From NCBI GenBank assembly GCA_949372645.1, contig CASIAP010000001.1:17802-81801 (forward strand): a stretch of DNA of 64,000 bases, read 5' to 3'. Both the position numbers and the translations under genes were made by a program. The stretch's first letter is position 1. Each line of letters opens with the position of its first letter. This stretch comes from Candidatus Poseidoniaceae archaeon (GTDB lineage: Archaea; Thermoplasmatota; Poseidoniia; Poseidoniales; Poseidoniaceae). The notes beneath the pieces are model-generated. The model worked only from the letters and a program-made list of their open reading frames with translations, made no database searches and was not told the DNA's origin. Shown in pieces: positions 3,201-61,540 of the stretch.

Positions 3201-6200
3201 GTGGGTGGTTTGCAGTCGTCATCATCATGGAAATCTCAACGAATTTCACTCTTTTTGGTCATCGTTTTTTTGTTTGCAGACCTTGGAGTACTTGCGAATG
3301 AATCTGAAACAAATGTTTCAGAATCTCTCTCTCAACCTCTCTTTTCTGAACCTATATTGGTCGAAGGCTTACCGCCGTTAATGTGTGGTGAAGAACTGTG
3401 CTTACGCCCAATCCGAGATATCGATCGTGGCGATCGGGTCTCAGCAGAAGCAGTTCAATGGTGGCAATCTTACGGTCCCGACCTTGATTGGAACGGCATG
3501 GATGATCGTCTTCAACGGGTCTTAGCTGGTGAAGAATCTGTTTCACCCACAGCTCTTATTGGCCCTGATGGCCGGAAAACAGTGGCGATCGTTGTCGACT
3601 ATGCTTGGCGAGCCAATGACGCCGAAATAGAAACTCTACGAACGGTTCTTGATGCGCATGGCTGGGTTGGAGAAGAAGGTGGCGCATGGTTCCAACAGCT
3701 CATTGATATCGATTCGGTGGCTATCGATAAAGTCCCAGTTTCCGCTCTTATGGATCTTTATTCGTTATATGGCGTCGTGGTGATTGAAATGCAAAACCTC
3801 ATGATACCGTTCAATGATGTAGCTGCTAAAGCCTCTCGTGCTCGACCATCTGATGTCTATTCCGCAACTGCTTACGAACGTGATTACATTGGCGAGGGAA
3901 TTGTGATTGCCGTGCTCGATACTGGCGTTGACAATGAGCATGAATCATTAAATGACTTTGATGATGAAAGTGATGAGCCGGACGAAGACCCTCTCTCTTA
4001 CAATGATCACAAGTGGGTTGCTGGATATGACGCGACCTCTTCAGCTTCAAATCCTGATGGTTCACAAGATCCTGATGATGGAAACGGACATGGGACTCAC
4101 GTTGCCGGTTCAGCTGTTGGAACGGGTGATAGTAGTCGTATCCACATGGGGACTGCTCCTGGTGCCTATCTTGTCGATATCAAAGTTCTTACCGATGCAG
4201 GCGGTACAAATTCACAAGCTTCTCTCAACGGAATTCAATGGTTAATTAACAACCAAGATACCAATTGGGGTCACAATTCTTCCACTCGCGGAATTCAAGT
4301 TGCATCGATGTCCTTTGGCTCAGCCTCTACACCACTCAATCCCGAAGATCAAGGAGATAATGGTAGCGGCTCTGAGGCGCGACTGGTCAATGATGCAGTT
4401 AATGCATCCATCGTTTGTGTCGTTGCAATGGGTAACGATGGGACCAATCGAGTCCCCTCTCCAGCCAGTGCTGATAACGCTATTTCAATAGGTGCAGCGA
4501 CAGACCGCGGAAGCATCAACAGAACCAACGATAATGTTGCGGATTACTCAAACACTGGACCTCGTCTCGACGATGAGGATGACGATGAATGGGATGAACT
4601 GAAACCTGATATCACTTCATATGGTTCTTCGATTATGTCCGCTACCGCTCAAACCGGAACGTCCTTCCCAGGTCAACCAGCCAAACCTCTTGCTGGTTCA
4701 GATTATGATGAAAAAGATGGAACAAGTATGGCGACACCAATCGCTTCAGGTATCGTTGCCCTCATGCTCCAAGCCGATCCCTCTCTGGAACCACAAGAAG
4801 TCAAAGATATTCTACGAAACTCTTCGGAACAGCGAGGCAGCGTTAGTGAACCTGGCATCTCCGACCGTTGGAATGATGAATGGGGCTTTGGACTCATCGA
4901 TGCATCATGCGCCATCGATATGGTTTTGGAAAAGGCCTGTACGCCTCTTGAGGATGGTGGAGACATCCCACCTCCTCCGACCGGAAACGGTTCAGGTGAC
5001 CACGTTGATATGTCGAAGCCGAATAACGGTTCATGGTGGATTGAAGGAAACTTCGTACGGATAGCAGGCAATACACAAGCGAATGAAGATGGTGATGAGT
5101 ATACGAAAGTTCAGATACGAATAATGCAGTATCTTGAATCTGGAACCGTTCGAGAATTACAAAGTTGGATTGACACTGGTGGCGAGGTATCGTCTTGGTT
5201 CTTGGACGTCTCGGTCAAAGAAAGCTGGATACGTCAAGATGAAGATTATGTTTTGATTCTGGCTCGTGCGCTCACAGATGAAGGTGATGAATCAGCAATT
5301 GATGCCCGCCAGGTTAACCTTGCACGCATGGCTGTGACCATTGCAGGTCCGCCTTTGGGTACAGCAATCCAAGGCTCAGTTGATTTTAGCGGAACAGTTG
5401 AAGGAGTTCAACACGACTTACTCGAATATCGAGTAGATAACGGCGATTGGCTCGTGGGTGAAGAATTAACTTCAATGGAAGTAGGTTCACAAGACTGGTC
5501 TTTCTCATGGAACTCGAATTCTGTCGATGACGGTTCACACCGTTTCTCGTTTAGAATGGTCAATGAAAGCGGTGTGATGACCGATGATGTCCGTCGAACC
5601 TATTCGGTTGACAATCAACCTGCAGCTCCCGATTTCATGTTCCAAGGTTCTGTCGAAATAATGGACCAAGCCCTTCCGGTGTTTTCTGCGGTAGCAGGCA
5701 CTGTGTTAGAAGTTGACTTTACGGTTGGTAACGCTGGAGACTTAGATGCAAACGATGTCTTTGTGCAACTGGAGGCCACCGGTAGTCAATCCGCAACCTA
5801 TCCTCGAGAGTACAGAATATCGACTCTTAATGAAGGAGAAAGTCATCAGGTGACGCTCTATTGGTGGGCTACTGAACCAGGTACGCATGACGTCACCATC
5901 TCGATTGATCCAAACAACCAGCTTGGAGACCCAAACCCCAGTAACAATGTCTACACCTTCTCGTTTGAAGTTGAGGAGCGTCCCGTAGAAGCAATGCTGC
6001 GGTTTTTGCCAGGTTCGGTTACGACCAATCCTAAAGTCCCTCTACCAGGTAGTAATTTTGATATCGATATCCGTATTGACAACTTAGGTCAAACTGAAGC
6101 CACACAGTTAACTATGCGTCTAGCACGCTGGAATGGCGGTTGGGTTGAAGTAGGAGTTTCTAATATTTTGATTGTCCCTGGTTCGGACTCCAGTTCAGGT

Positions 6201-8147
6201 CAAAGCACCGGAGGATTCAGCGAAATAGGTCTTGAACTTGGCCATGCAAAATATCAAGTTACCTTAGAAGGTAATGGGGTTGAACCGGAATTTAGCATTC
6301 ACTACTTTACCGTGGTCATTGATGATGTGATACTTGGTTCTCAGGTGAGTATATCTCTGAGTTCAGGTGAAGTTCCAATTGATTTCATTGGTTTGGAGGA
6401 CGGTGGCCTTTTGTTCACCACTCGTGATGGAGAACTTCATGTTCGAACTACAACAGCTTCAATGGTAATGCAGGTTGATGTCATGCTTGAGCAAAAGTGG
6501 GGCGGTCAACTTACCACATACTTGCGAGATGATGGTTTGGTTCAAGCAGCATGGAATCGAAAGACCATCAGTCCAGATGGCTATACACTCACTGATATTG
6601 CGATGACTTCACTCACTCGTTTAGGTGAGAAAACTCCAGTCCATCATCAGATGCCTGCGATTAAATTATCTGAGGGGTCTTATTGGGGACTTGCGTTAGC
6701 AGAACATGATGATAAAATGATTTTAGCAGGATATCACCGAGATATTTCAACTGGAGGATCATGGCAAGACATCACTTCGATTTTCACCTTGGTATCATCG
6801 AATCCCGACAGTCAATCGTCTTGGAGTTCACCGAATATTGTGCTGTCGGATGTTCAAATACGTCCATCTCAAGGTGATGCTCTGGCAATCGGTTTGGGTG
6901 AAGAAAACTTACATATTCTCTATCAAGAAGAACGAAACGATGTCACTGGAATTGATCGTATTGGATTGATGTATACGCATGGTAATCCAGACTATGCCGC
7001 TTGGGGATTCCAGTCATCCATCGGTGATCACGCTCAGAAGGCGCAACTCGTTGTTCTTACAAACGGGAGTAAGGACGTCCTTGTTGCTTCTTGGATCGAA
7101 GGTCGTGGCAAAGATGCTATGGTCGCACACATTGTTACTGACAATGTATGGTCAGGTGAAGCAGAAAAAATAGGAGCACCTGGTGTGACGCATATCGAAT
7201 TGAATCCGACTTCCGATGGTGTTCAAATCTTCTACGATGAAATAAACGTATTTGGCCCAGTTACCCGATATGGCCTCTTATCTGATTCTTCACAAGGGCC
7301 AACCCTTGCTCTTTCAAACATTCTTACTGGAGGGTTTTTGAAAGGACATGCAGGAATGGAATTCGATGGAATTCTCCTACTTTCTTCTGCCAGCGGTTCA
7401 CTCAAAATGCGAACACTTGCTGATTTGGAAGGAGATTCCAAAGGACAAGACGAGTCAACATCCTTGCTCAATTCCCTGCTTGACCCTTTACCAGGGGATT
7501 ATGAAACGAAAGTATTGATTTTGGGTGTTGTATCTACTTTGTTCGTAGTGTTCCTTCTGATGATTGTTCATTCAGTTCGCTCATCTCGACGTCGTGAGGA
7601 GGAACTTGTCATTTTGGAATCAGGGCAAAACCAAGATGCAGATGCGTTAGAATTGCTTGTTGTTCCTGTCAAAGACGACGGACCACTGCTTGCCATCGAC
7701 ACGGAAACAGAAGATTTGGTCGTCGAGATGGATGACCAGTCAGTCTCGGCTATGTTGGATGATGAAGAATTGAGTTTGTCAGCCTCACTTGAAGCTAAAA
7801 ACGAATCCGGTGAAGGTAACTCCCGTCTCAATCGCCGTATGCAGCGAAAGCAACAGCGTGAGATTACTGAGATGGTTCAATCGATGAACACCTCACTTCC
7901 ACCACTTCCGGCTCTTCCTCTCACTGCTCCTGAACCAGCCCCATTGATTGCAGATTTAGCCGCTTTACCATTAATCCCACTTCCTGATGGGAGTCTACCA
8001 CCTCTTCTCGGGTTGCCACCTCTACCAATGATTCAGCCTCCTCAACGAGATGTGACGTGCCATGAATGTGCAGCTAAATTCACTGTGAAAGACATGACGC
8101 TCACCCGTGTGAGCTGTCCGATTTGTTCTGTGAAGGTTGATTGCTGA
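3201..8147 (+). CDS. Giant membrane-anchored subtilisin-like serine protease (peptidase S8) with C-terminal TM helix and cytoplasmic tail
   Basis: GTG start. Signal peptide ISLFLVIVFLFADLGVLA. S8 catalytic triad motifs DTGVDNEHESL, HGTHVAGS and GTSMATPIASG. A CARDB-like beta-sandwich motif (FTVGNAGDLDA). TM helix ILGVVSTLFVVFLLMIV followed by RSSRRRE. About 190 aa proline-rich tail ending in CHEC...CPIC. Confidence 0.85.
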   Translation: MGGLQSSSSWKSQRISLFLVIVFLFADLGVLANESETNVSESLSQPLFSEPILVEGLPPLMCGEELCLRPIRDIDRGDRVSAEAVQWWQSYGPDLDWNGMDDRLQRVLAGEESVSPTALIGPDGRKTVAIVVDYAWRANDAEIETLRTVLDAHGWVGEEGGAWFQQLIDIDSVAIDKVPVSALMDLYSLYGVVVIEMQNLMIPFNDVAAKASRARPSDVYSATAYERDYIGEGIVIAVLDTGVDNEHESLNDFDDESDEPDEDPLSYNDHKWVAGYDATSSASNPDGSQDPDDGNGHGTHVAGSAVGTGDSSRIHMGTAPGAYLVDIKVLTDAGGTNSQASLNGIQWLINNQDTNWGHNSSTRGIQVASMSFGSASTPLNPEDQGDNGSGSEARLVNDAVNASIVCVVAMGNDGTNRVPSPASADNAISIGAATDRGSINRTNDNVADYSNTGPRLDDEDDDEWDELKPDITSYGSSIMSATAQTGTSFPGQPAKPLAGSDYDEKDGTSMATPIASGIVALMLQADPSLEPQEVKDILRNSSEQRGSVSEPGISDRWNDEWGFGLIDASCAIDMVLEKACTPLEDGGDIPPPPTGNGSGDHVDMSKPNNGSWWIEGNFVRIAGNTQANEDGDEYTKVQIRIMQYLESGTVRELQSWIDTGGEVSSWFLDVSVKESWIRQDEDYVLILARALTDEGDESAIDARQVNLARMAVTIAGPPLGTAIQGSVDFSGTVEGVQHDLLEYRVDNGDWLVGEELTSMEVGSQDWSFSWNSNSVDDGSHRFSFRMVNESGVMTDDVRRTYSVDNQPAAPDFMFQGSVEIMDQALPVFSAVAGTVLEVDFTVGNAGDLDANDVFVQLEATGSQSATYPREYRISTLNEGESHQVTLYWWATEPGTHDVTISIDPNNQLGDPNPSNNVYTFSFEVEERPVEAMLRFLPGSVTTNPKVPLPGSNFDIDIRIDNLGQTEATQLTMRLARWNGGWVEVGVSNILIVPGSDSSSGQSTGGFSEIGLELGHAKYQVTLEGNGVEPEFSIHYFTVVIDDVILGSQVSISLSSGEVPIDFIGLEDGGLLFTTRDGELHVRTTTASMVMQVDVMLEQKWGGQLTTYLRDDGLVQAAWNRKTISPDGYTLTDIAMTSLTRLGEKTPVHHQMPAIKLSEGSYWGLALAEHDDKMILAGYHRDISTGGSWQDITSIFTLVSSNPDSQSSWSSPNIVLSDVQIRPSQGDALAIGLGEENLHILYQEERNDVTGIDRIGLMYTHGNPDYAAWGFQSSIGDHAQKAQLVVLTNGSKDVLVASWIEGRGKDAMVAHIVTDNVWSGEAEKIGAPGVTHIELNPTSDGVQIFYDEINVFGPVTRYGLLSDSSQGPTLALSNILTGGFLKGHAGMEFDGILLLSSASGSLKMRTLADLEGDSKGQDESTSLLNSLLDPLPGDYETKVLILGVVSTLFVVFLLMIVHSVRSSRRREEELVILESGQNQDADALELLVVPVKDDGPLLAIDTETEDLVVEMDDQSVSAMLDDEELSLSASLEAKNESGEGNSRLNRRMQRKQQREITEMVQSMNTSLPPLPALPLTAPEPAPLIADLAALPLIPLPDGSLPPLLGLPPLPMIQPPQRDVTCHECAAKFTVKDMTLTRVSCPICSVKVDC

Positions 8148-9980: not shown

Positions 9981-10751
9981 TCACAAAATTGAGAACCGTT
10001 GTTCCTCTTCTTTCCAATTGAACGGCTTGTAACCAAGTCGATGGTTGGTATGTCGCATCTTGACAACGCCCATCTTTCGAGCGACATCATCACCCGATCG
10101 CTCCATGACCAAATGAATCACGCCATCTGCAAGATAGTCTTCAACACCGTATTCACCGAATTGTTTGTTATCTTCACCAGTCATCTCACAGATGAAGAAC
10201 GAGGTCAGTCCAAGACGTCGAACGGCTTCAAAGAGTCTGAAGATCTCATCTCGAGGGTTTTCCATCTTCGTGAGTGTGAAGAAAGCACCGAGTGAATCGA
10301 AAACAAGTAATTCAAAACCGATTGAATCCCGGTATGAAGTAAGTTGTTTGATGAGTTGACCCATCCAGTCGACCCGGCTACTCATGCCTTGTTCATCAAG
10401 TTGAACACGCAAATCGGAAAGATCGATAATCGCAATTCGGTTACTCACTCGCTTATCATCAATGTTCATTCCCATGTTCGACATGTGCGATCGAAGTGAA
10501 TCCTTTCCTTGTTCAAGTGTGACATATATCCCACTCGTTTCGCCATAAAGCACTGCATTGTATAGCATTGAAAAAGTAAGACTGGACTTCATTGCACCCG
10601 ATGCCCCAGCTACAATACAAATGTGTCCTTCTGGAATCCCACCTTGCATATTTTCGTCTAATCCTTCAATATGCGTTGGTATTCTTGTTACTCCACTCAT
10701 GCCGGCACCATGTTGGGGTATACGCTTTGATTCTTCAACCTCACCCTTCAT
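9981..10751 (-). CDS. KaiC-like / RecA-superfamily ATPase (COG0467 family) with degenerate Walker A
   Basis: IPTHIEGLDENMQGGIPEGHICIVAGASGAMKSS matches the KaiC/RadA-like N-terminus. Walker B LLVFDSLGAF. C-terminal VVKMRHTNH matches the family KMRGsxH motif. Walker A reads GASGAMKS instead of GxxGxGK[ST]. Confidence 0.6.
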   Translation of the reverse strand: MKGEVEESKRIPQHGAGMSGVTRIPTHIEGLDENMQGGIPEGHICIVAGASGAMKSSLTFSMLYNAVLYGETSGIYVTLEQGKDSLRSHMSNMGMNIDDKRVSNRIAIIDLSDLRVQLDEQGMSSRVDWMGQLIKQLTSYRDSIGFELLVFDSLGAFFTLTKMENPRDEIFRLFEAVRRLGLTSFFICEMTGEDNKQFGEYGVEDYLADGVIHLVMERSGDDVARKMGVVKMRHTNHRLGYKPFNWKEEEQRFSIL

Positions 10752-10826: not shown

Positions 10827-11396
10827 GTGAACGTTTGGCTAGCATCACAATCTCCTCGTAGAGCAGCAATGCTTTCTCCACTTTTCACAGATCTCAAATG
10901 TGAAGGTTTTACTGATGTTGATGAAACTCCAACGCCTGGTAGCGTTGCCGCTCAAGTGTTGTCTATTTGTCAAAAAAAGTCTGAAGCAGTGCCTGATGGG
11001 CATGGCTTTGACCTTGTCATCGTTTGCGATACCTTACTTGCCGATCCAGATGATATGGATTCAACACTTGGAAAACCGAATGATGCAGTTGAAGCAGCCA
11101 TGATGTTACATCGACTCTCGGGGAGGCGACATCAAGTTTGGTCTGCTACCGGAATTCTTCTGCACGGTTCGTGGAAATTTTACGTTGAACATGCGATTGT
11201 CGAATTTCAGGCACTTACCGATGAACAATTGGTTGAGTTGGTCTTGAGTGAATCTTGGAAAGGAAAAGCAGGTGGTTATGATTTGGCAGGGCCCATGGGT
11301 GACTATGCTCGTCTCATTGACGGTCACGAATCAACGGTACTTGGAATCGCAGGAGAGGCAATGGAACTTTTCCGCACGTTCTCACTCGGGCATTAA
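10827..11396 (+). CDS. maf: Maf-like nucleoside triphosphate pyrophosphatase
   Basis: N-terminal LASQSPRRAAML Maf signature. 189 aa. Confidence 0.75.
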   Translation: MNVWLASQSPRRAAMLSPLFTDLKCEGFTDVDETPTPGSVAAQVLSICQKKSEAVPDGHGFDLVIVCDTLLADPDDMDSTLGKPNDAVEAAMMLHRLSGRRHQVWSATGILLHGSWKFYVEHAIVEFQALTDEQLVELVLSESWKGKAGGYDLAGPMGDYARLIDGHESTVLGIAGEAMELFRTFSLGH

Positions 11397-12002
11397 AGGG
11401 AGCAATCCCAATTCATGCCGTCCAACATCAACGATAACATCGATGCCTGGTAGTAATAGAAGTTTATCTTCTGCATCCAATGCAAATATCCCAACACCTG
11501 CTTCATTGCTCATCCGTTGAAGGTCTCTGCGGCAGACATTCTGATGAGTATCCATGTGTACCATTGGGCGTAAATCGACAATAATCGAGTCGCCATGAAG
11601 TACGCGCTTTGACATTTCCCGAGTAGGGATTCGATTCATTTCATCCGGCGAAACATACCTTAGGGCTCTTCTCGGGAGGGGGTTCTTCACTCTGACATGG
11701 GCGCCAAGGTCGTGAAACGCTTCACCTTCAGCAGTGAGTGGTCCTGACCAATTGTGTGGTAATGGTTTTATCGCGTGACGTGTCAATCTTTTTGTTTCAA
11801 GTTGAATTGTTTGCTCAGTAGGTGATTTTACATTGGCCTCTACAACATTCGGTTTGAACGTTTGTTGAGGTGAGAGCTTTGTTCCTGAAGCATTAGATAC
11901 AGCTGATTCAACTTTTCTTGTGCGTCTTTTCTCACCAGTGTGACCGTCAGGGTCAGGTAATCCAAAAAATTGCCACAAACTTCCCATTTTTCCACCGTTC
12001 AC
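11382..12002 (-). CDS. SepF-like (DUF552) putative cell-division protein
   Basis: The C-terminal ~80 aa (GDSIIVDLRP...RRDLQRMSNEAGVGIFALDAEDKLLLLPGIDVIV) follow the SepF pattern h-h-h-L...R..DF/L..G..yAL...l.L.P..V. The GTG start overlaps the stop of the upstream giant gene; an ATG (MGSLWQ) lies 15 nt further down. Confidence 0.4.
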   Translation of the reverse strand: MNGGKMGSLWQFFGLPDPDGHTGEKRRTRKVESAVSNASGTKLSPQQTFKPNVVEANVKSPTEQTIQLETKRLTRHAIKPLPHNWSGPLTAEGEAFHDLGAHVRVKNPLPRRALRYVSPDEMNRIPTREMSKRVLHGDSIIVDLRPMVHMDTHQNVCRRDLQRMSNEAGVGIFALDAEDKLLLLPGIDVIVDVGRHELGLLPLMPE

Positions 12003-15000
12003 AAATCGAGGTCATCAAGGAAACCTGACATATCTGTACTTGCAGAGGCGCTTGGAGTATTGTTAGTTGTCGGCTGTGCTGGGCTCTGTTGACCCATTTG
12101 TGCAGCAAGATACTGTTCACCGTAATGTTGCCATTGTTCCATGGTCCATCCATCCGGTAGTCCCGAAGACGGGAGGGCTGGACCGGTATGAACAGCTACG
12201 GGTTGAACTGATTGCTGGACTGTAGGTTCTGCAAATGCGCTCATTGCCGCCAAAGTATCAGCTGGTGAAGTGGCAGGTGCAGGTGCAGGTTGAGCATAGG
12301 GGTCGGCAGCAGGTGCAGGTTGAGCATAGGGGTCGGCAGCAGGTGCAGGTTGTGCATACATATCGTGTTGCGGTTGAGCAGCGGGTTGTGCATACATATC
12401 GTGTTGCGGTTGAGCAGCAGGTTCATTCATTGCATATGAAGGCTGAGCAGCCATTGTCGGTTCAATCGATGGAATGTCTCCAAATGCAGAATATTTCTCA
12501 TCCTCATCTTTGCCCCTCCCTCGGGTAAGTAAGAGGAACCCTGCGAGAATTACGACGATACCGGCAAGACTGACAATGATAGCGGTTGGAACGGACCCAA
12601 TTGTCGCACTAATGCTTTCAAAAATCCCCTCAGCAGGTTTTTCTGCAACGGTAAGGGTGATACTCGTAGTCGAAAACTCTCCGTCATCATCCGTGGCAGT
12701 GAGTGTAACTTCCCATTGTCCCGGTTTAAGGTCAGTGAGCGTATATTTTGCTCCAGTGTAATCAATCTCTCCAGTGAAATCTCCATCGAGGTTACTGTCA
12801 ATCAGATCACTGTCCCAATCGTATTGCAAAGTGAGTTTGTCACCTATGGTTTCTCGCGAATCTAATCCTGAAAGCGTGATGTTATCACCTTCCATGAGTT
12901 CAAACACATTGCTTGAATTGGTGATGGCTGCAGCTGGTGCGAGGTTTTGAACACTGATATTGACTGAAGTCATCGCTTGTGCTCCGTCATCATCGGTGAC
13001 CGTGGCTGTAATTTGACGTATTCCTCGTGTAGACCAGGCAGTGGTCAATTCCATGCCTTGTGCTTCACAATCATTGACAAAGTTTCCATCATTGTTGCCG
13101 TCGACCAATACATCGGTATCCCAGCACACTTCCAAACTGTCAAGGTCTGATGCAGTATCTGAGACTTGAACGCTCAAAGTGAGTTCATCGTCTTCAAATA
13201 TTGGAATAGTGGACCCAAGTCCAGTTATTGTTGGTGCAACATTCATGATATTGACCAGGGCTGTTCGAACTTCTGAGCGCGCCCCATCGTTGTCATAGGC
13301 CGATACTTGAATGGTTTGAAGACCAGCATTCGGCCATGAAACTGTTGCTGTTGAAGAGGGACCTTTGGTCGTTTCTGTCCAATTCGGTTCTAAATCTGAA
13401 GGCTTCCATTCAATGTTGATATCATCGCGGTCTGACAGTGTATCGCCTCCCACAATCCGTAGTAGAGCAACTTGATCTTCATCCAATTCCCATACACCCA
13501 TTGAATCTACAGTCAAATTGGTTCCACCATACCAGAGTTCAGGATATGCCAAGGTTGGTGCAATATTCAAGACATTCAAACTTGTAGTGATGGTTGTTGT
13601 ATCTCCATCATCATCGGTTGCTAGGGCAGTAATGTCGAGAGGACCTTCTCCCATCGGTGTAAAGGTGCATGTAGGTTGAGTCAATCCTTCTTGACAATTA
13701 AGGCCAGGCCAAGTGATGCTGACCTGCTGACCAGGAGGCGAAATACTGTCGATGTCGCCACTGTCCGTAGCATCGAGAGTAATTTCCGATTCAACATCAA
13801 TACTCTCGACCATACTGAGATTCAGATAAGGTGCTCGATTGAGGACTGTGACGTTCATTTCGAGAATATCTTCATCGAGTTCTTCATCATATACGATGAC
13901 CTTGACCATCCACTCACCATCATCGCTCCAATTCCATTGCGTTATACAATTTGGTGCATCAAGAACTTCAATGAGTCCAGGTTTGGACTCAAGTTCAAAT
14001 CGGCAATCAACATCTCCACCATCTTCATCGAAACTCCCTGATGCGTTAAGAATCACATTCTCAAAGGTATATTTTCCTTCATCAAAAGTAAAGACTCCAG
14101 TTGGTGCACGACCGATGAAAATATCGATACTTGCTTCATTGTTGGTTCGATTCGCATCTTCAGTGACCAATTCATCAGGGTCGACGGTGAACGAAAGAGT
14201 CTGGTCGCCGATAGCTGCATTAGCAGGAACTGTCCAGTTGACCGTAATACGTTGTTCACTGTACGATGGAATAGAAGGAACCGATTCACGAATACTTACC
14301 CCATCTGGAGTTATCACTTCGATTTCTGTCGCTGGAGAAGCTAAGACTCCTCGGTTTTGTGCAGGGATGGAGAAGGAAAGCATATCGCCAGGTAATGCCC
14401 CGTATCCAATCGCTTGGTTCAAAATGACCTCATCAGTACCTCGATATCGTGTTACAATAATTGAATCGCTTTGAGCAACCAAATCAATTGCAACCACATT
14501 GAGGTCGATGACAACCGTTGCAGCGCCGATGATCTCTGTTAGAGGGTCCCAGACAATGATCCCATTACTCGAGTAATCATCGCTCGAAGGGGTATTGTCC
14601 ATTCCATTGGTGACATTGAGTGTATACTCAAGCATCCCTGAACCATCAGTCGTTGGACTGGCAAGAAGATTTGTTGACTCATATCGTACTTGCATGTTCT
14701 TATTGCCTTGAGGTTGGGCACCTGGTGAGGTTTCATAGATGACTGAAACAGTTTGCTCGGAATTCGGGAGCGTAGCCAAGAATTGCAGGTCTACGTCGAC
14801 GACAACATTTCGAGCGCCAGGATTTGAAGTGGCTTGAACGCCCCATGAATCAGCAGGTGAATATGATTTTAGTAACCAATCGATGGTGAATCCGGCAGCG
14901 TTCGAGATGCGTATCCATGAATTGAAACGGACAGCAGGGCAATACCAGTTGAATCCCGCTGAAACACCCGTCTCGTTCCACTCATTGATTTTGTATGAAT

Positions 15001-15745
15001 CATCGCAACCAGTGTAAGATACGGAATTACTGCTGTCACCTGGGACTCCATTGGCGGTGATCTGCCAACTGTTGTTTTCAGGCCCTTGTGTGTCGAATTC
15101 TGAAGGGTCAAAATAATCTGAACTCCCACTCACACCAGTCGATGAATAAAACGGCATATACCATTGGTCACCTGTGTGAATTGGGAAATCATTTCTTTCT
15201 TTGGGAGGTTCATACATGGTGTCAAAAGTGATTTCAGCAATGTCCTGTTCCAAGAACCCAAGATTGAACGGGCGGAATTTGACATCGAGTTTGAATTCTG
15301 AGTTTACTTGCGCTAAGTCACGAACACGAATCAAATCTTCGCCTTCATAGCCGATGTTAAGGCGGCCGGAAACCCCTTCTAAGGTTGCCCCACTGTTCCC
15401 TGAGGTGAAATCACCATCGATTTCAACTTTGTAAACGAGTGTCTGGGTACCATCGGTGGTGGTGAATAAAATATCGGTCACCTTGTAGGTTGTATCACCA
15501 GTTAGCGTGTTGAGTGATGCGGACACATTGGCTTGAGCAATCAATTGGGCGACATCGAATTTCGTCTCATAGACCCACTCATCTCCGATTCTCCATGTGG
15601 GGACATCTTTTTCGGTATCCCAACCTTCTGCTGATTGAACATTATGTTCTGAAAGAGTAAGTGTGTGATGAGAAATCATACCCGTTAACGGAGCAGCCAA
15701 CATTAACAAAATCAATCCTAAGACGACAGGTCGAAAGCGAATCAT
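11999..15745 (-). CDS. Giant surface protein A (1248 aa): signal peptide, PKD-like/beta-sandwich repeats, single C-terminal TM anchor, ~250 aa cytoplasmic tail with Pro/Gln-rich tandem repeats and a C-terminal LPDGWTMEQWQHYGEQY motif
   Basis: Signal peptide VVLGLILLMLAAPLTG. Multiple ATDDDG.../TVxV PKD-like modules. TM helix IIVSLAGIVVILAGFLLL followed by TRGRGKDEDE. Paralog of the gene immediately upstream. Confidence 0.7.
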   Translation of the reverse strand: MIRFRPVVLGLILLMLAAPLTGMISHHTLTLSEHNVQSAEGWDTEKDVPTWRIGDEWVYETKFDVAQLIAQANVSASLNTLTGDTTYKVTDILFTTTDGTQTLVYKVEIDGDFTSGNSGATLEGVSGRLNIGYEGEDLIRVRDLAQVNSEFKLDVKFRPFNLGFLEQDIAEITFDTMYEPPKERNDFPIHTGDQWYMPFYSSTGVSGSSDYFDPSEFDTQGPENNSWQITANGVPGDSSNSVSYTGCDDSYKINEWNETGVSAGFNWYCPAVRFNSWIRISNAAGFTIDWLLKSYSPADSWGVQATSNPGARNVVVDVDLQFLATLPNSEQTVSVIYETSPGAQPQGNKNMQVRYESTNLLASPTTDGSGMLEYTLNVTNGMDNTPSSDDYSSNGIIVWDPLTEIIGAATVVIDLNVVAIDLVAQSDSIIVTRYRGTDEVILNQAIGYGALPGDMLSFSIPAQNRGVLASPATEIEVITPDGVSIRESVPSIPSYSEQRITVNWTVPANAAIGDQTLSFTVDPDELVTEDANRTNNEASIDIFIGRAPTGVFTFDEGKYTFENVILNASGSFDEDGGDVDCRFELESKPGLIEVLDAPNCITQWNWSDDGEWMVKVIVYDEELDEDILEMNVTVLNRAPYLNLSMVESIDVESEITLDATDSGDIDSISPPGQQVSITWPGLNCQEGLTQPTCTFTPMGEGPLDITALATDDDGDTTTITTSLNVLNIAPTLAYPELWYGGTNLTVDSMGVWELDEDQVALLRIVGGDTLSDRDDINIEWKPSDLEPNWTETTKGPSSTATVSWPNAGLQTIQVSAYDNDGARSEVRTALVNIMNVAPTITGLGSTIPIFEDDELTLSVQVSDTASDLDSLEVCWDTDVLVDGNNDGNFVNDCEAQGMELTTAWSTRGIRQITATVTDDDGAQAMTSVNISVQNLAPAAAITNSSNVFELMEGDNITLSGLDSRETIGDKLTLQYDWDSDLIDSNLDGDFTGEIDYTGAKYTLTDLKPGQWEVTLTATDDDGEFSTTSITLTVAEKPAEGIFESISATIGSVPTAIIVSLAGIVVILAGFLLLTRGRGKDEDEKYSAFGDIPSIEPTMAAQPSYAMNEPAAQPQHDMYAQPAAQPQHDMYAQPAPAADPYAQPAPAADPYAQPAPAPATSPADTLAAMSAFAEPTVQQSVQPVAVHTGPALPSSGLPDGWTMEQWQHYGEQYLAAQMGQQSPAQPTTNNTPSASASTDMSGFLDDLDL
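12279..12416. repeat. Imperfect tandem DNA repeats (2 x 30 nt + 2 x 36 nt) inside the tail-coding region of surface protein A
   Basis: gcaggtgcaggttgagcataggggtcggca occurs twice in tandem, then two 36-42 nt variants. It encodes QPQHDMYAQPAA / ADPYAQPAPA repeats. Confidence 0.8.
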
Positions 15746-15800: not shown

Positions 15801-17681
15801 TCAAGGGTGTGAAGATTGAGCCTCGGTATATTGATGGCCATAATGTGACCATTGCTCCTGAGTCCAACCCTCGGGCAATCCTCCTTCTGGCAGAGGTAAG
15901 CCTTCAGATTCAATCACCGGTTCTACAGATGTTGCGATTGGTTCAGTATCCTCTTCAGGTTCTGAGAGTGTGGTTTCTTGAGGCACGTCAAAGGTGGTCG
16001 TGAACATTTGGTTGGAAGGAGGTGCCTTAGGGCGGCGTGATTGTGCTTCATCGACCAATGATTGTTTTTCAAATACCTGTTCTGACAGGTCTTCTCCTTC
16101 AAGTCCACCTTGTTGCCAAGCCTCATCATCCGGATTCGCTTTTTTCCGACGTGTAATTAATGCGAGAAGAATCAAGGTGAGCAACAAGAGTCCGATTTGT
16201 GCTAAAGGATTAGCTTCATCTCCAATCAACGCTGCACCGAATTCTTCGATTGTAGTTCGCTCAGGTGGAGCAACCTCGACGACCATCGTCGACTGGCCAG
16301 GTCGCTCAGGATTTTCATCCCATGCCATTGCTTTAACACGAACAGTTCCAGCCTTGAGGAACCGATGGATGACGGTTGAACCAACCAAATCAGCATCGTT
16401 GTCTTTAATTCCATCACCGTTGCTATCAACTGTGATATCTAAGTCCCACACAATGGTTAGCCCCTCCAAGTCATTCAGAGAGTCAATGGTTTGCTCTGCA
16501 CTCAGTACGCAGTCTCTGTATGCAATACAGTCGATGTTTTTCAAACGAACAATCGGTGGCATATTGAGTACTTCAATTACGAGTACTTCACTTGATTGTG
16601 CTCCATCATCATCGGTGACATGATAGATGATGGTGTGAGTACCACTTCGATTCCACGCATATTCGAGAATATCTCCTTTGATGTCACAATCATCATCGGC
16701 TCCACCAAGGTCATCACTGTCGATCCCTGGGTCGATATCCCAACATTTGACTAAGGATTCAATATCACTTTGGGTGTCAGTAGAATTCCCTTCAATGGTA
16801 ATACTTTGACCTTCAGCTATCGGTAAAAGAGAGACCAGCGGTTCGATAACAGGAGGGACATTTCGAATGTTAATCCATCGTTCTTCAACAAGACTTGCTT
16901 CACCATCTGAGTCGCTAACTTCCAAACGAATGGTATGAAGACCAGCGGTATCCCATTGCATTGGGAAGGTTGAGGTGCGTCCTGAAAAGGAATACATGAG
17001 GGAAGGCTGCTGGCCATCAGGCCACCAGGTATGCGTTAAGCCTTCGAGGTCATCAATCGAATCAAGAGCTTGACCCTTGACCACAATGCTTTCATCCTCA
17101 TCTAATTGCCAGATCTGTTGTTCATCACTTTGGATAAATTGATTGTTCTTCTGTAATGCGATGGACGCACTGTGTGGGGCGATATTGGTGAAACGAATGT
17201 CGAATGTAGCGGCAGTCGTTTCATAATCATCATCGGTGGCAACCGCAGTGAAGGTATGCCAACCTTCAGTCGGTGCAGTTGTTGTGCAAACTCGAGTATA
17301 GTAGCCTTCCTTGCACAAGGCATCTGGCCAATGAACATCGACAACACCAGGCCAAACCTCTTCAGAATCTGAATCATTAGCAAATGCATAGAGTGTGATT
17401 GGATGCTCAACCTTCGCTTCATTACGAGCGCTCATGATACCGATTTGTGGATGTCTGTTTCCAATTGATACCAACATGGTCGCCTTCTGTTCATCACGTT
17501 CTTCATCAATCACCGTTACTTCTACGGGGTAATTGCCATCATCCATCCATGTCCAATTGACTAAACAGGATGGAGAAGTAATCTTTTGCCACGCCCAGTT
17601 ACGTGAACCATCATCATACGGGATGTTAAAGAGGCAAGACACCTCACCACCATCGGCGTCAAAACTCTCCATCTGCAACAA
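15801..17681 (-). CDS. Surface protein B, C-terminal segment: PKD-like repeats, TM anchor, cytoplasmic tail ending LPEGWTQEQWSHYGHQY
   Basis: The ORF opens with TTG. SFDADGGEVSC aligns with SFDEDGGDVDC of protein A directly after the frame break. TM helix LLLLTLILLALI followed by TRRKKANPDDE. Confidence 0.55.
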   Translation of the reverse strand: MLQMESFDADGGEVSCLFNIPYDDGSRNWAWQKITSPSCLVNWTWMDDGNYPVEVTVIDEERDEQKATMLVSIGNRHPQIGIMSARNEAKVEHPITLYAFANDSDSEEVWPGVVDVHWPDALCKEGYYTRVCTTTAPTEGWHTFTAVATDDDYETTAATFDIRFTNIAPHSASIALQKNNQFIQSDEQQIWQLDEDESIVVKGQALDSIDDLEGLTHTWWPDGQQPSLMYSFSGRTSTFPMQWDTAGLHTIRLEVSDSDGEASLVEERWINIRNVPPVIEPLVSLLPIAEGQSITIEGNSTDTQSDIESLVKCWDIDPGIDSDDLGGADDDCDIKGDILEYAWNRSGTHTIIYHVTDDDGAQSSEVLVIEVLNMPPIVRLKNIDCIAYRDCVLSAEQTIDSLNDLEGLTIVWDLDITVDSNGDGIKDNDADLVGSTVIHRFLKAGTVRVKAMAWDENPERPGQSTMVVEVAPPERTTIEEFGAALIGDEANPLAQIGLLLLTLILLALITRRKKANPDDEAWQQGGLEGEDLSEQVFEKQSLVDEAQSRRPKAPPSNQMFTTTFDVPQETTLSEPEEDTEPIATSVEPVIESEGLPLPEGGLPEGWTQEQWSHYGHQYTEAQSSHP

Positions 17682-19392
17682 GTTGAATTCTCTCGAGGGT
17701 CAGCGCTGAAGCATTATTGATTTGAGGCGTTGGAAGACGGCCAACGAACATCGAGAGTTCTGCATAATCGTTCGTTGAGTTGGCATCAGCCGAGTTGACT
17801 CCATCTGGATCTGCTTGCCATGATACGGGGACGATTCCAATTGCTTGGTCGCTTGGAACCGTCCAAGTGAAATTCACTTTGTGAGCTTCATAAGTGGCTA
17901 GAGATGGAAGAGGGTGTGTTGAGATTTGGCCATCGGGATGCGTAATCGTCATCGTTGTAGGAGTGCTTGAAGTAATTCCACGGTTTTGAACAGCCACTTC
18001 AATCAGCAATACATCACTCGGTAATATATTCCAACCCGATAAAGAATTGAGTTCGCTTACTACGCCACTTCGGTTACGCAATACCTTGGCAAATGAATCA
18101 CTTGAAATCAAATCGAGTCCGACTAAATATTCATCCAGTGTCAATGTAGTTGAACCAACAGCATTGCCAAATGATGACGAACTTGAAGGCTGAACTCTTG
18201 CCACAATCCCATGACTTGCCCAATCGAGTGCGGAACTGGAAGAGTCCCTTGCATCACCCATGTCGAGAACAGCATAGGCACTTCCGTTACTTGCAGTGGT
18301 CACCGATACAACTTGGTTCATCGCTTCATGACGGAGTTCCAAAGGAATACCAGTCGTGGTTGAGAAACAATTCGAAGATGCATTTACCCATACCGGCATT
18401 GGCGTATTGAGTGCAGTAAGGTCTGCATCTAAATCAACCACAAGACATTCATCACGAGTCCCAGGATTGCTGTATTGGTCGACACCAATCGAATCCATAG
18501 GAATGTATCTCTTGAGACGGAAGTCGATGACGAGTCCAATATCATCTTCTGTGTGGAGCCAAGCAAAGTTTCTCGCTTCTGGGCAATACCATTGATATCC
18601 GTTTTGGTCACCATCACTGTTGATGGATGTTAGTTCATACGAGGCATTACAACCTCCATATGCAATAGTTTCTCCATAACTGTTGCGAGGTTTACCAATG
18701 CTTGTCACCTCCCAAGTCGTACTGTTGGTGTCTGTGGTTGGAGGTGGGAATGGTGTGATGTAATCACTCGAACCTGACCAAGCAGAAGAAGCGGTTGTTG
18801 TTGTTGTCCATTGTTCATTGGCTCGAAGAGGAAAGTCGTAGACTTCTTTCACAGGACTGTAGGTATTTGTTATCGTGATGTCGCCAAGTACTTGTGCCAG
18901 ACTTGAGAGTCCAAATGGAACGAATCGAATGTATAATTCCAAGTCGCTGCGCATTGACGACAAATCGCTCACTCGAAGGTATTCTGTTTGTTCAAAGGTA
19001 ATGTAGACGTTGCCACTGTAACCGTCGAGCGAAACACCTGATTTGTCAAAGTTAGCAGATGTACGTAATGTATATGCAAGAACAGACATGTTGTCGACAG
19101 TACGTTCAGTTATGGCAATAACTTCGGCAGTCGTATCACCATCGATTTCACCAACCGTTGCTTGAACACCTGAATCAGTGACTAATTTCGTTGGGTCAAA
19201 TGTTCCAGAATAGATCCATTTGTCACCGATTTTCCACGTGGGCACGTCACTGACTCCTGGGTCCTGTGATGAAAATCGAACAGCAGGGGCATCTTCCAAG
19301 GGTGGAGAAAAAAGCATCGGTTGCATCGAAGCAAAACACAACAGCAAAACCAGCATCAAAGGAGATACAAGTCGTAACGAGGCTTTGCCCAT
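17659..19392 (-). CDS. Surface protein B, N-terminal segment (paralog of protein A); frame interrupted at 17659-17700
   Basis: Signal peptide LMLVLLLCFASMQP. DVPTWKIGDKWIY... is collinear with DVPTWRIGDEWVY... of protein A. It ends in a TGA, and the homology continues in another frame. Confidence 0.55.
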   Translation of the reverse strand: MGKASLRLVSPLMLVLLLCFASMQPMLFSPPLEDAPAVRFSSQDPGVSDVPTWKIGDKWIYSGTFDPTKLVTDSGVQATVGEIDGDTTAEVIAITERTVDNMSVLAYTLRTSANFDKSGVSLDGYSGNVYITFEQTEYLRVSDLSSMRSDLELYIRFVPFGLSSLAQVLGDITITNTYSPVKEVYDFPLRANEQWTTTTTASSAWSGSSDYITPFPPPTTDTNSTTWEVTSIGKPRNSYGETIAYGGCNASYELTSINSDGDQNGYQWYCPEARNFAWLHTEDDIGLVIDFRLKRYIPMDSIGVDQYSNPGTRDECLVVDLDADLTALNTPMPVWVNASSNCFSTTTGIPLELRHEAMNQVVSVTTASNGSAYAVLDMGDARDSSSSALDWASHGIVARVQPSSSSSFGNAVGSTTLTLDEYLVGLDLISSDSFAKVLRNRSGVVSELNSLSGWNILPSDVLLIEVAVQNRGITSSTPTTMTITHPDGQISTHPLPSLATYEAHKVNFTWTVPSDQAIGIVPVSWQADPDGVNSADANSTNDYAELSMFVGRLPTPQINNASALTLERIQLVADGEF

Positions 19393-30573: not shown

Positions 30574-30663
30574 GATGTGGCCTTTGGCAGTGAGCACATG
30601 AACTCGTCGCTTTGACAACCTCGAACGGACATGTTGAAGTATCGCCGATTTTGAAACGATTTC

Positions 30664-61493: not shown

Positions 61494-61540
61494 ATCAATC
61501 CTATTCCACCCCTTCTAGGGTGATTATAAAAGGTGAAATT

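What the first reader, a model, noticed from the sequence alone, without database searches (positions are those of the whole stretch)
12108..12166. Conserved C-terminal cytoplasmic motif GLP[DE]GWT.EQW.HYG.QY shared by paralogous giant surface proteins A and B (also near 15815-15890)
Both tandem paralogs end their otherwise divergent cytoplasmic tails with the same motif: A has GLPDGWTMEQWQHYGEQY and B has GLPEGWTQEQWSHYGHQY. The opening LPxGW is the canonical start of WW domains. The Trp spacing is compressed relative to a true WW and resembles a shortened version of the Trp-rich module in the 39903 giant (DGYWWYH...NEWWY). Selective conservation of only this tail segment suggests a functional role such as a sorting signal, partner docking, or anchoring to a cytoplasmic scaffold. 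The downstream Pro-rich protein also contains VPEGWT.
Basis: seen in the sequence. Interest (0 to 1): 0.6.

Follow-up and report, generated by a model that had tools for sequence, protein, structure and literature searches.

The report
Poseidoniales surface-protein cytoplasmic tail module
The shared motif is real and belongs to a nearly invariant, undescribed ~26-residue module on the cytoplasmic tails of many membrane-anchored surface proteins of marine Group II archaea (Poseidoniales); it is probably a docking handle for a conserved intracellular partner, and one carrier is tightly linked to the cell-division protein SepF.

Summary
Protein A (11999-15745, minus strand) and its tandem paralog B (15801-19392, minus strand, split by a 1-nt insertion) share only a 38-residue block in otherwise unrelated tails.

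The motif is the core of a longer signature: G-P-P-[LIV]-P-x-x-G-L-P-x-G-W-[TS]-M-E-Q-W-x-[HY]-Y-G-x-Q-[YW]-L.
- It is kept in 119 of 120 A homologs down to 54% identity and in all B orthologs seen.
- A profile finds 634 clusters among 1.84 billion representatives.
- A scan of species genomes gave at least 529 confirmed matches. All 80 retrieved carry Poseidoniales or generic archaeal MAG labels.
- At least six unrelated ectodomain families carry it, always on the cytoplasmic side, about 30-150 residues from a TM helix.

It is not a WW domain. Only GLPxGW resembles one; the rest is predicted helical. Pfam, NCBIfam, PDB and the literature have nothing for it.

New context: the gene 11 nt downstream of A is a structurally SepF-like protein. 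All 48 A orthologs, and no other carrier, end in LLDDLD[LFI], which resembles the SepF-binding half of archaeal FtsZ tails.

Best reading: a docking module for a conserved cytoplasmic partner. A divisome link is plausible but unproven.

The parts
11999..15745 (-). Protein A, 1248 aa: signal-like N-terminus, conserved N-terminal region, CARDB and PKD repeats, one TM helix, cytoplasmic tail
   Evidence: ORF and translation. Pfam CARDB and PKD. 455 homologs, named ones Poseidoniales / Euryarchaeota MAGs.
12524..12592 (-). TM helix of A (residues 1052-1074, VPTAIIVSLAGIVVILAGFLLLT), followed by RGRGK
   Evidence: Hydrophobic stretch in the translation.
12185..12523 (-). Variable Pro/Gln/Ala-rich linker of the A tail (residues 1075-1187), with AQPAPAADPY repeats
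   Evidence: Unconserved among 97 non-redundant A tails. Across carriers, linkers are 30-152 residues (median about 60) and rich in P/A/S/Q/E.
12098..12184 (-). Tail module of A, extended form GPALPSSGLPDGWTMEQWQHYGEQYLAAQ (residues 1188-1216).
   Evidence: and the logo. AlphaFold2 gives pLDDT about 78 over the core, with a helix starting at the Met after GWT.
12002..12019 (-). Extreme C-terminus of A, LDDLDL: an acidic-hydrophobic peptide specific to A orthologs
   Evidence: 48 of 48 carriers directly upstream of the SepF-like gene end in LLDDLD[LFI]-type sequence; 0 of 69 other carriers do. It resembles the 'LDDFI' half of the M. smithii FtsZ C-terminal domain that binds SepF (PMC8178401).
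15801..17681 (-). Protein B, 3' part (626 aa): PKD repeats, TM helix, tail
17659..19392 (-). Protein B, 5' part (577 aa): signal-like N-terminus, N-terminal region paralogous to A (32-35% identity), CARDB
17658..17673 (-). 1-nt insertion that splits B into two reading frames in this window
   Evidence: Alignment with L082, where B is an intact 1196-aa gene.
16152..16208 (-). TM helix of B (PLAQIGLLLLTLILLALIT), followed by RRKK
15816..15899 (-). Tail module of B, LPLPEGGLPEGWTQEQWSHYGHQYTEAQ. It lies 4 residues before the stop codon.
11385..11987 (-). SepF-like protein (201 aa). Its start codon lies 11 nt after the stop codon of A.
   Evidence: It is always directly downstream of A, with a 4-13 nt gap, in 48 of 48 loci. 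The AlphaFold2 core has pLDDT 80-88. The top Foldseek hits in the PDB are all SepF: 3zie, 3zig, 8hzt, 6scp, 7al1.
11958..11987 (-). Invariant N-terminal MGSLWQFFGL of the SepF-like protein, a probable membrane-targeting amphipathic helix
   Evidence: Invariant in 20 and 30 orthologs. Predicted helix at residues 4-7. SepF domain plan as described in PMC8178401.
11706..11762 (-). Extra invariant segment in the SepF-like linker, LPHNWSGPLTAEGEAFHDL. It resembles the first two strands of a WW domain.
   Evidence: Invariant columns W80, G82, P83, F91, H92, D93. Weak, non-significant alignment to YAP1 WW domains (E about 1.2-1.7).
11406..11666 (-). SepF-like alpha/beta core, including a helical turn between strand 2 and helix 2
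   Evidence: Secondary structure of the model. Foldseek TM-scores normalised to the target of 0.72-0.79 against archaeal SepF-like proteins.

Best explanation
The motif is the core of a self-contained cytoplasmic module of about 26-30 residues. It is specific to Poseidoniales as far as sampled. It consists of a Pro-rich segment (GPP[LIV]PxxGLPxGW) followed by a Thr/Ser-capped amphipathic helix rich in aromatic residues (TMEQWx[HY]YGxQ[YW]L).

The module hangs on a disordered, acidic, Pro/Gln-rich tether of 30-150 residues from the cytoplasmic end of many membrane-anchored envelope proteins. I propose that it is a docking handle. The hydrophobic helix face packs against the module's own Pro-rich segment, giving a small hairpin like the pancreatic-polypeptide fold. 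The conserved polar face (E, Q, H/Y, Q) is read by one conserved, membrane-proximal cytoplasmic partner. Many different surface proteins are thereby tied to the same intracellular hub.

The best candidate hub is the division machinery. Protein A is in an operon-like arrangement with a SepF-like protein. A also carries, 52 residues after the module, a terminal LLDDLDL peptide that looks like the SepF-binding part of archaeal FtsZ tails.

Shown: the existence, extent, conservation, distribution and topology of the module; the predicted helix; the A to SepF-like linkage; and the restriction of the terminal peptide to A.

Inferred: the hairpin fold, docking to a partner, and the identity of that partner.
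For: 1. Extreme conservation in an otherwise free-drifting tail. 19 of 26 positions are near-invariant in 258 distinct sequences, while linkers are unconserved.
2. Reuse on at least six unrelated ectodomain families: 634 profile hits among 1.84 billion representatives and at least 529 confirmed matches in species genomes.
3. Always cytoplasmic and TM-tethered. 49 of 50 carriers of at least 180 aa have a predicted TM helix. The module is N-terminal in the type II protein P0256 and adjacent to a SAP (DNA-binding) domain in several proteins.
4. AlphaFold2 places a helix from the residue after GWT, with pLDDT about 78 over the core. The variable helix positions (+9, +13, +17) fall on one stripe, so roughly three quarters of the helix surface is constrained.
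5. The module is net acidic and lacks Lys/Arg, which argues against lipid binding.
6. Synonymous sites between A and B are saturated, so selection acts on the peptide.
7. For the divisome link: the SepF-like gene lies 4-13 nt after A in 48 of 48 loci. The LLDDLD[LFI] terminus is in 48 of 48 A orthologs and 0 of 69 other carriers. The fold is SepF-like. The FtsZ C-terminal residues LDDFI bind the SepF groove through Asp-Arg/Lys pairs (PMC8178401), and R153, R154 and K175 are invariant in the SepF-like protein.
Against: - No partner has been identified and no interaction computed or measured.
- The hairpin packing is inferred from sequence pattern alone. The Pro-rich part has lower confidence (pLDDT 56 for residues 1-10), coordinates were not inspectable, and Foldseek found no structural match.
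- The SepF adjacency and the FtsZ-like terminus concern only A. B and the other carrier families lie among housekeeping genes with no shared neighbour. The divisome link may therefore say nothing about the general module.
- The A terminus lacks the archaeal FtsZ 'GID' motif.
- SepF membership of the neighbour rests on predicted structure only. Pfam SepF gives E of 0.05 at best and hhalign gives 9.6% probability.
- The FtsZ tail of Poseidoniales could not be retrieved for comparison.
- Conserved synteny across the whole region (Maf, KaiC-like, GlmS, S8 protease) shows low rearrangement, which weakens adjacency as evidence.
Confidence: 0.5

Rival explanations
1. Self-association module. The aromatic helices of neighbouring tails zip together, homotypically or heterotypically (for example A with B). 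This would cluster envelope proteins into a lattice from the inside, with no separate partner protein.
For: - A and B are tandem paralogs that both carry the module, and several carriers coexist per genome.
- The W / Y-G / Y-W / L stripe with an invariant mid-helix Gly would allow close helix-helix packing.
- Pancreatic-polypeptide-type hairpins are known to dimerise (general knowledge).
Against: - Near-invariance of polar positions (E6, Q7, Q14) and of the Pro-rich part across all families is more than a zipper needs.
- A helix of two to three turns is weak on its own.
- Very different proteins carry it: a protein with a subtilase-like region, SAP-domain proteins and multi-pass proteins. They are not obviously parts of one lattice.
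Confidence: 0.17
2. Transient recognition signal rather than a stable tether. The module would be a tag read by a cytoplasmic or membrane-bound machine for targeting, membrane-insertion quality control or regulated turnover of large envelope proteins. Candidate readers are LonB, the proteasome-PAN system, or a rhomboid-linked pathway.
For: - It is usually at the extreme C-terminus; most carriers end 21-24 residues after P-x-G-W.
- It is exposed on a flexible linker.
- It is shared by many envelope proteins regardless of ectodomain.
- A rhomboid protease gene lies in the window at 2042-3109.
Against: - The module is internal in A (52 residues from the end) and N-terminal in P0256, so a free C-terminus is not required.
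- Degrons and targeting signals are rarely this long or this invariant.
- No processing enzyme is linked to it genomically.
Confidence: 0.15
3. Membrane-interface anchor. The Trp/Tyr-rich amphipathic helix lies on the inner leaflet and pins the tail back to the membrane.
For: Trp and Tyr favour membrane interfaces. The helix has a wide hydrophobic arc (M5, W8, Y11, G12, Y15, L16).
Against: - The module is net acidic with no Lys/Arg.
- Invariance of Gly, Pro and Gln positions is not needed for lipid binding.
- A 30-150 residue tether to re-bind the same membrane has no obvious purpose.
- The neighbouring SepF-like protein shows what a membrane-targeting helix looks like in this lineage (MGSLWQFFGL), and it is different.
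Confidence: 0.07
4. Degenerate, shortened WW domain that binds Pro-rich ligands.
For: GLPxGW matches the N-terminal hook of the SAV1 and ITCH WW domains. The tails are Pro-rich and contain PPLP and PY-like strings.
Against: - The matches are not significant (E = 0.13-0.3) and stop after 9 residues.
- The Trp-Trp spacing is 4 residues.
- No WxxP follows.
- A helix, not a beta-sheet, is predicted.
- There is no Pfam WW hit.
Confidence: 0.03

Closest known systems
WW domain (Pfam PF00397)
   Same: It opens with GLPxGW, is small, rich in Trp and Tyr, and sits in a Pro-rich context.
   Different: There is no second Trp 20-22 residues on, no WxxP, a helix is predicted instead of a three-stranded sheet, and there is no HMM match. 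It is not a member.
Pancreatic-polypeptide fold (aPP / NPY / PYY) and the Trp-cage miniprotein
   Same: About 30 residues. A Pro-rich polyproline-like stretch, a turn, then an amphipathic helix whose aromatic residues could interdigitate with the prolines. Compare aPP ...FYDNLQQYL with ...WxxYGxQYL here.
   Different: The resemblance was recalled from memory and is structural only. Those are secreted vertebrate hormones or designed peptides, with no homology. The packing was not verified here.
C-terminal peptide of FtsZ (CTD), which binds SepF, FtsA and ZipA
   Same: A short, highly conserved peptide at the end of a long disordered linker that docks onto a membrane-proximal partner. A's own terminus, LLDDLDL, resembles the LDDFI / DLDV half that binds the SepF groove (PMC8178401).
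   Different: The module sequence is unrelated. It sits on many membrane proteins rather than on one cytoskeletal protein. A's terminus lacks the archaeal GID motif. Binding is untested.
Haloarchaeal CdpA and bacterial ZipA (membrane anchors of the division ring)
   Same: The same design: a membrane anchor, a long disordered cytoplasmic linker and a small C-terminal domain. CdpA co-purifies with SepF, FtsZ2 and CdpB1/2 (PMC12126565).
   Different: CdpA is a multi-pass haloarchaeal protein with no large ectodomain and an unrelated C-terminal domain of unknown role. A and B are 1200-aa surface proteins. No sequence relation was found.
Archaeosortase / PGF-CTERM-type C-terminal sorting signals
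   Same: A lineage-specific C-terminal signature shared by many surface proteins of an archaeal group.
   Different: Those signals are a short motif, a TM helix and a basic stub, and they are cleaved at the membrane. Here the module lies 30-150 residues beyond the TM in the cytoplasm, and it can be N-terminal.

Membership tests
WW domain (PF00397) | Two signature Trp residues 20-22 residues apart, the second followed by xxP | tested here: not met
   The Trp residues are 4 residues apart (GW-xxxQ-W) and no WxxP follows, in 258 sequences.
WW domain (PF00397) | Three-stranded antiparallel beta-sheet | tested here: not met
   AlphaFold2 predicts a helix over residues 20-38 of the 66-mer, starting right after GWT, and no strands.
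WW domain (PF00397) | Match to the family HMM or to solved WW domains | tested here: not met
   No Pfam hit at E up to 10. The PDB profile search gives only GLPxGW, with E = 0.13-0.3.
WW domain (PF00397) | N-terminal LPxGW hook | tested here: met
   G-L-P-x-G-W is invariant.
Pancreatic-polypeptide fold | Amphipathic alpha-helix preceded by a turn and a Pro-rich N-terminal segment | tested here: met
   Predicted helix. Pro at -8, -7, -5 and 0, and a hydrophobic arc M5/W8/Y11/G12/Y15/L16.
Pancreatic-polypeptide fold | Prolines of the polyproline helix interdigitate with helix aromatic residues (tertiary packing) | not testable with these tools
   Model coordinates could not be inspected. pLDDT is only 56 for the first ten residues. 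Foldseek returned no matches.
Pancreatic-polypeptide fold | Sequence homology to the hormone family | tested here: not met
   No Pfam hit.
SepF (for the neighbouring gene 11385-11987) | C-terminal alpha/beta core: five-stranded sheet flanked by two helices | tested here: met
   AlphaFold2 gives a beta-alpha-beta-alpha-beta-beta-beta core with pLDDT 80-88. The top 7 Foldseek hits in the PDB are SepF or SepF-like, with probability 1.00 and target-normalised TM-scores of 0.72-0.79.
SepF (for the neighbouring gene 11385-11987) | N-terminal amphipathic membrane-targeting helix plus a flexible linker | tested here: met
   Invariant M[GA]xLWQFFGLP with a predicted helix at 4-7, then residues 18-64 at pLDDT below 50. 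Domain plan as described in PMC8178401.
SepF (for the neighbouring gene 11385-11987) | Archaea-specific helical turn between strand 2 and helix 2 | tested here: met
   Helical turn at residues 140-142, between strand 134-138 and helix 146-163. Feature described in PMC8178401.
SepF (for the neighbouring gene 11385-11987) | Significant match to the SepF sequence family (PF04472) | tested here: inconclusive
   Pfam SepF matches 3 of 20 orthologs at E of 0.05 at best. hhalign against bacterial SepF aligns helix 1 and strand 2 in the right register, but with only 9.6% probability.
SepF (for the neighbouring gene 11385-11987) | Binds the FtsZ C-terminal peptide and membranes | not testable with these tools
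   Requires biochemistry or multimer prediction.
FtsZ-CTD-like SepF ligand (for the LLDDLDL terminus of A) | Acidic-hydrophobic core (LDDF / DLDV type) at the end of a disordered tail | tested here: met
   LLDDLD[LFI] is at the extreme C-terminus in 48 of 48 A orthologs. Compared with LDDFI / DLDV in PMC8178401.
FtsZ-CTD-like SepF ligand (for the LLDDLDL terminus of A) | Archaeal 'GID' motif | tested here: not met
   No GID in any A terminus.
Archaeosortase-type C-terminal sorting signal | Signature motif immediately followed by a TM helix and a short basic stub at the extreme C-terminus | tested here: not met
   The module lies 30-152 residues after the TM helix, in the cytoplasm.

The most novel reading that the evidence does not exclude
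Poseidoniales have a lineage-specific system that couples the cell envelope to the FtsZ/SepF division machinery. A conserved pair of 1200-aa surface proteins (B and A) is co-expressed with SepF. A's tail ends in an FtsZ-tail mimic that occupies the SepF groove. The shared tail module, perhaps read by the extra WW-like segment unique to this SepF, recruits many other envelope proteins (adhesin-like proteins, a protein with a subtilase-like region, SAP-domain DNA tethers) to the same hub. This could serve mid-cell insertion of new envelope or act as a trans-envelope anchor of the ring.
Probability: 0.2. Interest if true: 0.8.

Novelty: new variant of a known kind. Interest (0 to 1): 0.6.

Why it matters
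Marine Group II archaea are among the most abundant planktonic archaea and remain uncultured. Almost nothing is known about their envelope or how they divide.

A near-invariant cytoplasmic module shared by many of their surface proteins points to an unknown intracellular hub that organises the envelope. It is small enough to synthesise and use as bait.

The strict B-A-SepF gene arrangement and the FtsZ-tail-like end of A offer a concrete, testable route to the first envelope-divisome connection in this group. Such membrane anchors of the archaeal division ring have so far been described mainly in haloarchaea.

Practically, the 26-residue signature is a sharp marker for annotating Poseidoniales envelope proteins. 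It deserves a family model.

Tried and rejected
- Pfam on both tails at E up to 10: nothing. NCBIfam on A and on the SepF-like protein: nothing relevant.
- PDB sequence profile search with the module: only the GLPxGW hook of WW domains, not significant.
- Foldseek with the 66-residue tail model: no matches, as expected for a short, partly disordered model.
- Full-text literature search for the motif strings, and for Poseidoniales with SepF or surface proteins: nothing on the module.
- Scan of viral contigs for the module, in case viruses of these archaea borrow it: 55 pattern matches, none confirmed.
- Search for a shared neighbour of the other carrier families. They sit next to thermosome, TFIIB, Phe-tRNA ligase, adenylate kinase and similar genes, with no common partner.
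- Search for FtsZ in the window and in 80 loci, to compare its tail with LLDDLDL: none present.
- Sequence-level proof that the neighbour is SepF: PDB profile search found no SepF, Pfam was weak, and hhalign gave low probability. Only the structure comparison was clear.
- Gene conversion as the cause of A/B identity: rejected by the codon comparison.
No similar Trp-rich tail occurs in the 80 loci.
- Covariation between the module and the SepF-like protein: not attempted, because both are nearly invariant and the phylogeny would confound it.
Full report
**1. What is in the sequence**

The window comes from a Poseidoniales (Marine Group II) archaeon. Homologs of protein A are labelled Poseidoniales, Poseidoniaceae or 'Euryarchaeota archaeon' metagenome-assembled genomes, and one homolog is 100% identical.

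Protein A is encoded at 11999-15745 on the minus strand (1248 aa). It has a signal-like N-terminus, a CARDB domain, PKD repeats and one TM helix at residues 1052-1074, followed by a 174-residue tail.

Protein B lies directly upstream on the same strand and is a paralog, 32-35% identical over the N-terminal 577 residues. In this window B is split into 17659-19392 and 15801-17681 by a single extra base at 17658-17673. In a relative whose A protein is 89% identical, B is an intact 1196-aa gene.

**2. It is more than chance**

- BLASTP of the two tails aligns a single 38-residue block (61% identity, E = 2e-14) and nothing else.
- A 32-column profile built from A homologs plus B, searched against the six-frame translation of the window, scores 64.9 and 59.6 bits for A and B. 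The next best score is 4.5 bits.
- Of 19 identical residues in the block, only 7 use the same codon, two of them the single-codon Trp. Synonymous sites have diverged, so the identity is held by selection on the peptide and not by recent gene conversion.

**3. Conservation in orthologs**

- Of 120 listed A homologs (54-100% identity), 119 carry the motif. The exception is a 767-aa fragment lacking the C-terminus. In all 119 the motif starts exactly 54 residues from the end.
- Along 97 non-redundant A tails the linker is unconserved. The conserved parts are the block GP.LP..GLP.GWTMEQW..YG.QYLAAQ, a QP dipeptide and the last six residues.
- In 80 loci fetched from species-representative genomes, the B then A tandem recurs in both Poseidoniaceae and Thalassarchaeaceae, and both genes keep the motif.

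**4. The motif is a widespread module**

The profile searched against 1.84 billion representative proteins gave 634 hits at E up to 1e-3 and 140 at E up to 1e-10.

The best 150 all carry a longer signature, confirmed on 258 distinct sequences: G-P-P-[LIV]-P-x-x-G-L-P-x-G-W-[TS]-M-E-Q-W-x-[HY]-Y-G-x-Q-[YW]-L. Nineteen near-invariant positions fall within 26 residues. The regex used to collect these sequences fixes P, G, W and YG, so those positions are invariant by construction. The others are not.

The best 80 are all Poseidoniales or generically labelled archaeal metagenome-assembled genomes.

Clustering the ectodomains of 117 carriers gives at least six unrelated families. Pfam finds PKD, CARDB, cadherin-like and Ig-like domains, or nothing.

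No viral contig carries the module. Whether it exists outside Poseidoniales could not be settled, because only the top hits are returned.

**5. Topology and context of the module**

- Of 50 carriers of at least 180 aa, 49 have a predicted TM helix, normally upstream of the module. The one carrier with no predicted TM is shorter at the N-terminus than its relative P0232 and lacks that protein's N-terminal TM segment.
- The linker between the TM helix and the module is 30-152 residues (median about 60). It is rich in P, A, S, Q and E.
- Most carriers end 21-24 residues after P-x-G-W, which is right after the helix.
- In P0256, a type II membrane protein, the module is N-terminal. It sits between a SAP domain and the TM helix. 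In P0232, P0242 and P0253 it precedes a SAP domain.

The module is thus always on the cytoplasmic side, whichever end that is.

**6. Shape of the module**

AlphaFold2 on the last 66 residues of A, with 37 aligned tails, gives mean pLDDT 61. It gives about 78 over residues 11-30 and predicts a helix from the Met after GWT (residues 20-38). The remainder is disordered.

On a helical wheel, M5, W8, Y11, G12, Y15 and L16 form a wide hydrophobic arc. E6, Q7, H/Y10 and Q14 form a conserved polar side. The only variable positions (+9, +13, +17) form one stripe.

That pattern fits a helix buried on most sides. My inference is that one side packs on the module's own Pro-rich segment, like the pancreatic-polypeptide fold, and the other side faces a partner. 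The packing itself could not be checked, and Foldseek found nothing.

The module is acidic and lacks Lys/Arg, which argues against lipid binding.

**7. Not a WW domain**

- Only GLPxGW resembles the WW hook (SAV1 and ITCH, E = 0.13-0.3).
- The Trp spacing is 4 residues, WxxP is absent, a helix rather than strands is predicted, and Pfam finds no WW.
- The VPEGWT site at 61134 scores 3.9 bits, and the GYWWYHDKVTNEWWY tail of the 39903 protein does not match.

**8. An unexpected neighbour**

The 201-aa gene at 11385-11987 starts 11 nt after the stop codon of A. In all 48 loci that contain an A ortholog, this gene follows with a gap of 4-13 nt.

It has no Pfam or NCBIfam family, but its structure is SepF-like:
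- AlphaFold2 gives a beta-alpha-beta-alpha-beta-beta-beta core at pLDDT 80-88.
- The top Foldseek hits in the PDB are all SepF or SepF-like: 3zie, 3zig, 8hzt, 6scp, 3zih, 7al1. Probability is 1.00 and target-normalised TM-scores are 0.72-0.79.
- It has the SepF domain plan. This is an invariant N-terminal amphipathic MGxLWQFFGLP, a disordered linker, the core, and the archaea-specific helical turn between strand 2 and helix 2.

Sequence-level evidence for SepF membership is weak.

Unusually, its linker contains an invariant segment LPxxWxGPxTxDGExFHDL. This aligns weakly with the first two strands of the YAP1 WW domains (E about 1.2-1.7). That is a lead only.

**9. A second, A-specific signal**

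All 48 carriers directly upstream of the SepF-like gene end in LLDDLD[LFI] or close variants. None of the 69 other carriers does.

Among the representatives, every acidic-ended carrier that includes enough ectodomain to compare (12 of 31) matches the A ectodomain, down to 32% identity. The other 19 are short C-terminal fragments.

In M. smithii, the FtsZ C-terminal residues LDDFI (DLDV in C. glutamicum) lie in the SepF groove between helix 2 and strand 3. They are held by Asp-Arg/Lys ion pairs (PMC8178401). The SepF-like protein here has invariant R153, R154 and K175 in the corresponding elements.

I infer that A's terminus is an FtsZ-tail-like ligand for its neighbour. It lacks the archaeal GID motif, however, and binding is untested.

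**10. How it most likely works**

The general module is best read as a docking handle on a flexible tether. It would tie many envelope proteins to one conserved, membrane-proximal cytoplasmic partner (confidence about 0.5).

The division machinery is the leading candidate (about 0.2). The reasons are the A to SepF coupling, the extra conserved segment in this SepF, and the SAP-plus-module proteins that would link DNA to the same hub.

The design matches known ring anchors such as haloarchaeal CdpA and bacterial ZipA: a membrane anchor, a long disordered linker and a small C-terminal domain (PMC12126565).

The rivals are self-association of tails, a transient targeting or turnover signal, a membrane-interface helix, and a degenerate WW domain. 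The other carrier families have no shared gene neighbour, so the divisome link cannot yet be extended from A to the module in general.

**11. Verdict**

The WW reading and the two side resemblances are wrong. The module is undescribed in Pfam, NCBIfam, the PDB and the searched literature.

It is a new, lineage-specific variant of a known kind of thing, a conserved cytoplasmic docking element. It has an intriguing and testable link to SepF.

Noticed in passing
window 17658-17673 (minus strand): Protein B is split into two frames by one extra base (GATGGAGAGTTTTGAC here, GATGG-TAGTTTTGAT in relative L082, where B is an intact 1196-aa gene). This is either an assembly error or a very recent pseudogene; the downstream 626-aa part is otherwise undamaged.
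   Followed up: partly
window 11385-11987 (minus strand): A 201-aa protein with no family annotation is structurally SepF-like. It follows A by 4-13 nt in 48 of 48 loci. It may be the SepF of Poseidoniales, which sequence models miss.
   Followed up: yes
window 11706-11762 (minus strand): The linker of the SepF-like protein holds an invariant segment LPxxWxGPxTxDGExFHDL resembling the first two strands of a WW domain (YAP1, E about 1.2-1.7, not significant). Canonical SepF linkers are not conserved.
   Followed up: partly
window 12002-12019 (minus strand): A ends in LDDLDL. This acidic-hydrophobic terminus is present in all 48 A orthologs next to the SepF-like gene and in none of 69 other module carriers. 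It resembles the SepF-binding half of FtsZ tails.
   Followed up: yes
window 3201-8147 (plus strand), last ~90 residues: The 1648-aa subtilase/CARDB surface protein ends in a different conserved C-terminal module: a Pro-rich stretch (LPPLPGLPPLP) followed by a zinc-ribbon-like C.EC...CPICS. The same ending is found in 11 related loci.
   Followed up: partly
window 39903-45065 (plus strand), last ~35 residues: After its TM helix and an acidic linker, the 1720-aa protein ends in a distinct Trp-rich string, GYWWYHDKVTNEWWYKNAEGE. It is unrelated to the module studied here and was not found in the 80 related loci.
   Followed up: partly
window 9981-10751 (minus strand): A single-domain KaiC-like ATPase (256 aa) is unusually conserved, 75-99% identical across Poseidoniales loci where the SepF-like protein is only 40-75% identical. 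It keeps its place two genes beyond A. Function unknown.
   Followed up: no
P0232, P0242, P0253, P0256 (relatives, not in the window): Membrane proteins combine the tail module with a SAP (helix-extension-helix, DNA-binding) domain. In P0256 both lie N-terminal to the TM helix. These may be membrane-chromosome tethers using the same docking handle.
   Followed up: partly
window 27826-30684 (minus strand): A 952-aa amidohydrolase-domain surface protein has a long TGGTD repeat stalk, a TM helix and a short acidic tail without the module.
   Followed up: no
window 61520-62721 (plus strand): Two tandem genes have archaellin or pilin-type N-termini (AIGIGAMIVFIALILVAAVAAAVIIQTAE), suggesting the start of an archaellum or pilus cluster.
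   Followed up: no
L013, L016, L017 and related loci: A second carrier family of about 1150 aa is always followed by a thermosome (Cpn60/TCP-1) gene. Other carrier families sit beside TFIIB, Phe-tRNA ligase or adenylate kinase. Module carriers are scattered among core genes.
   Followed up: partly
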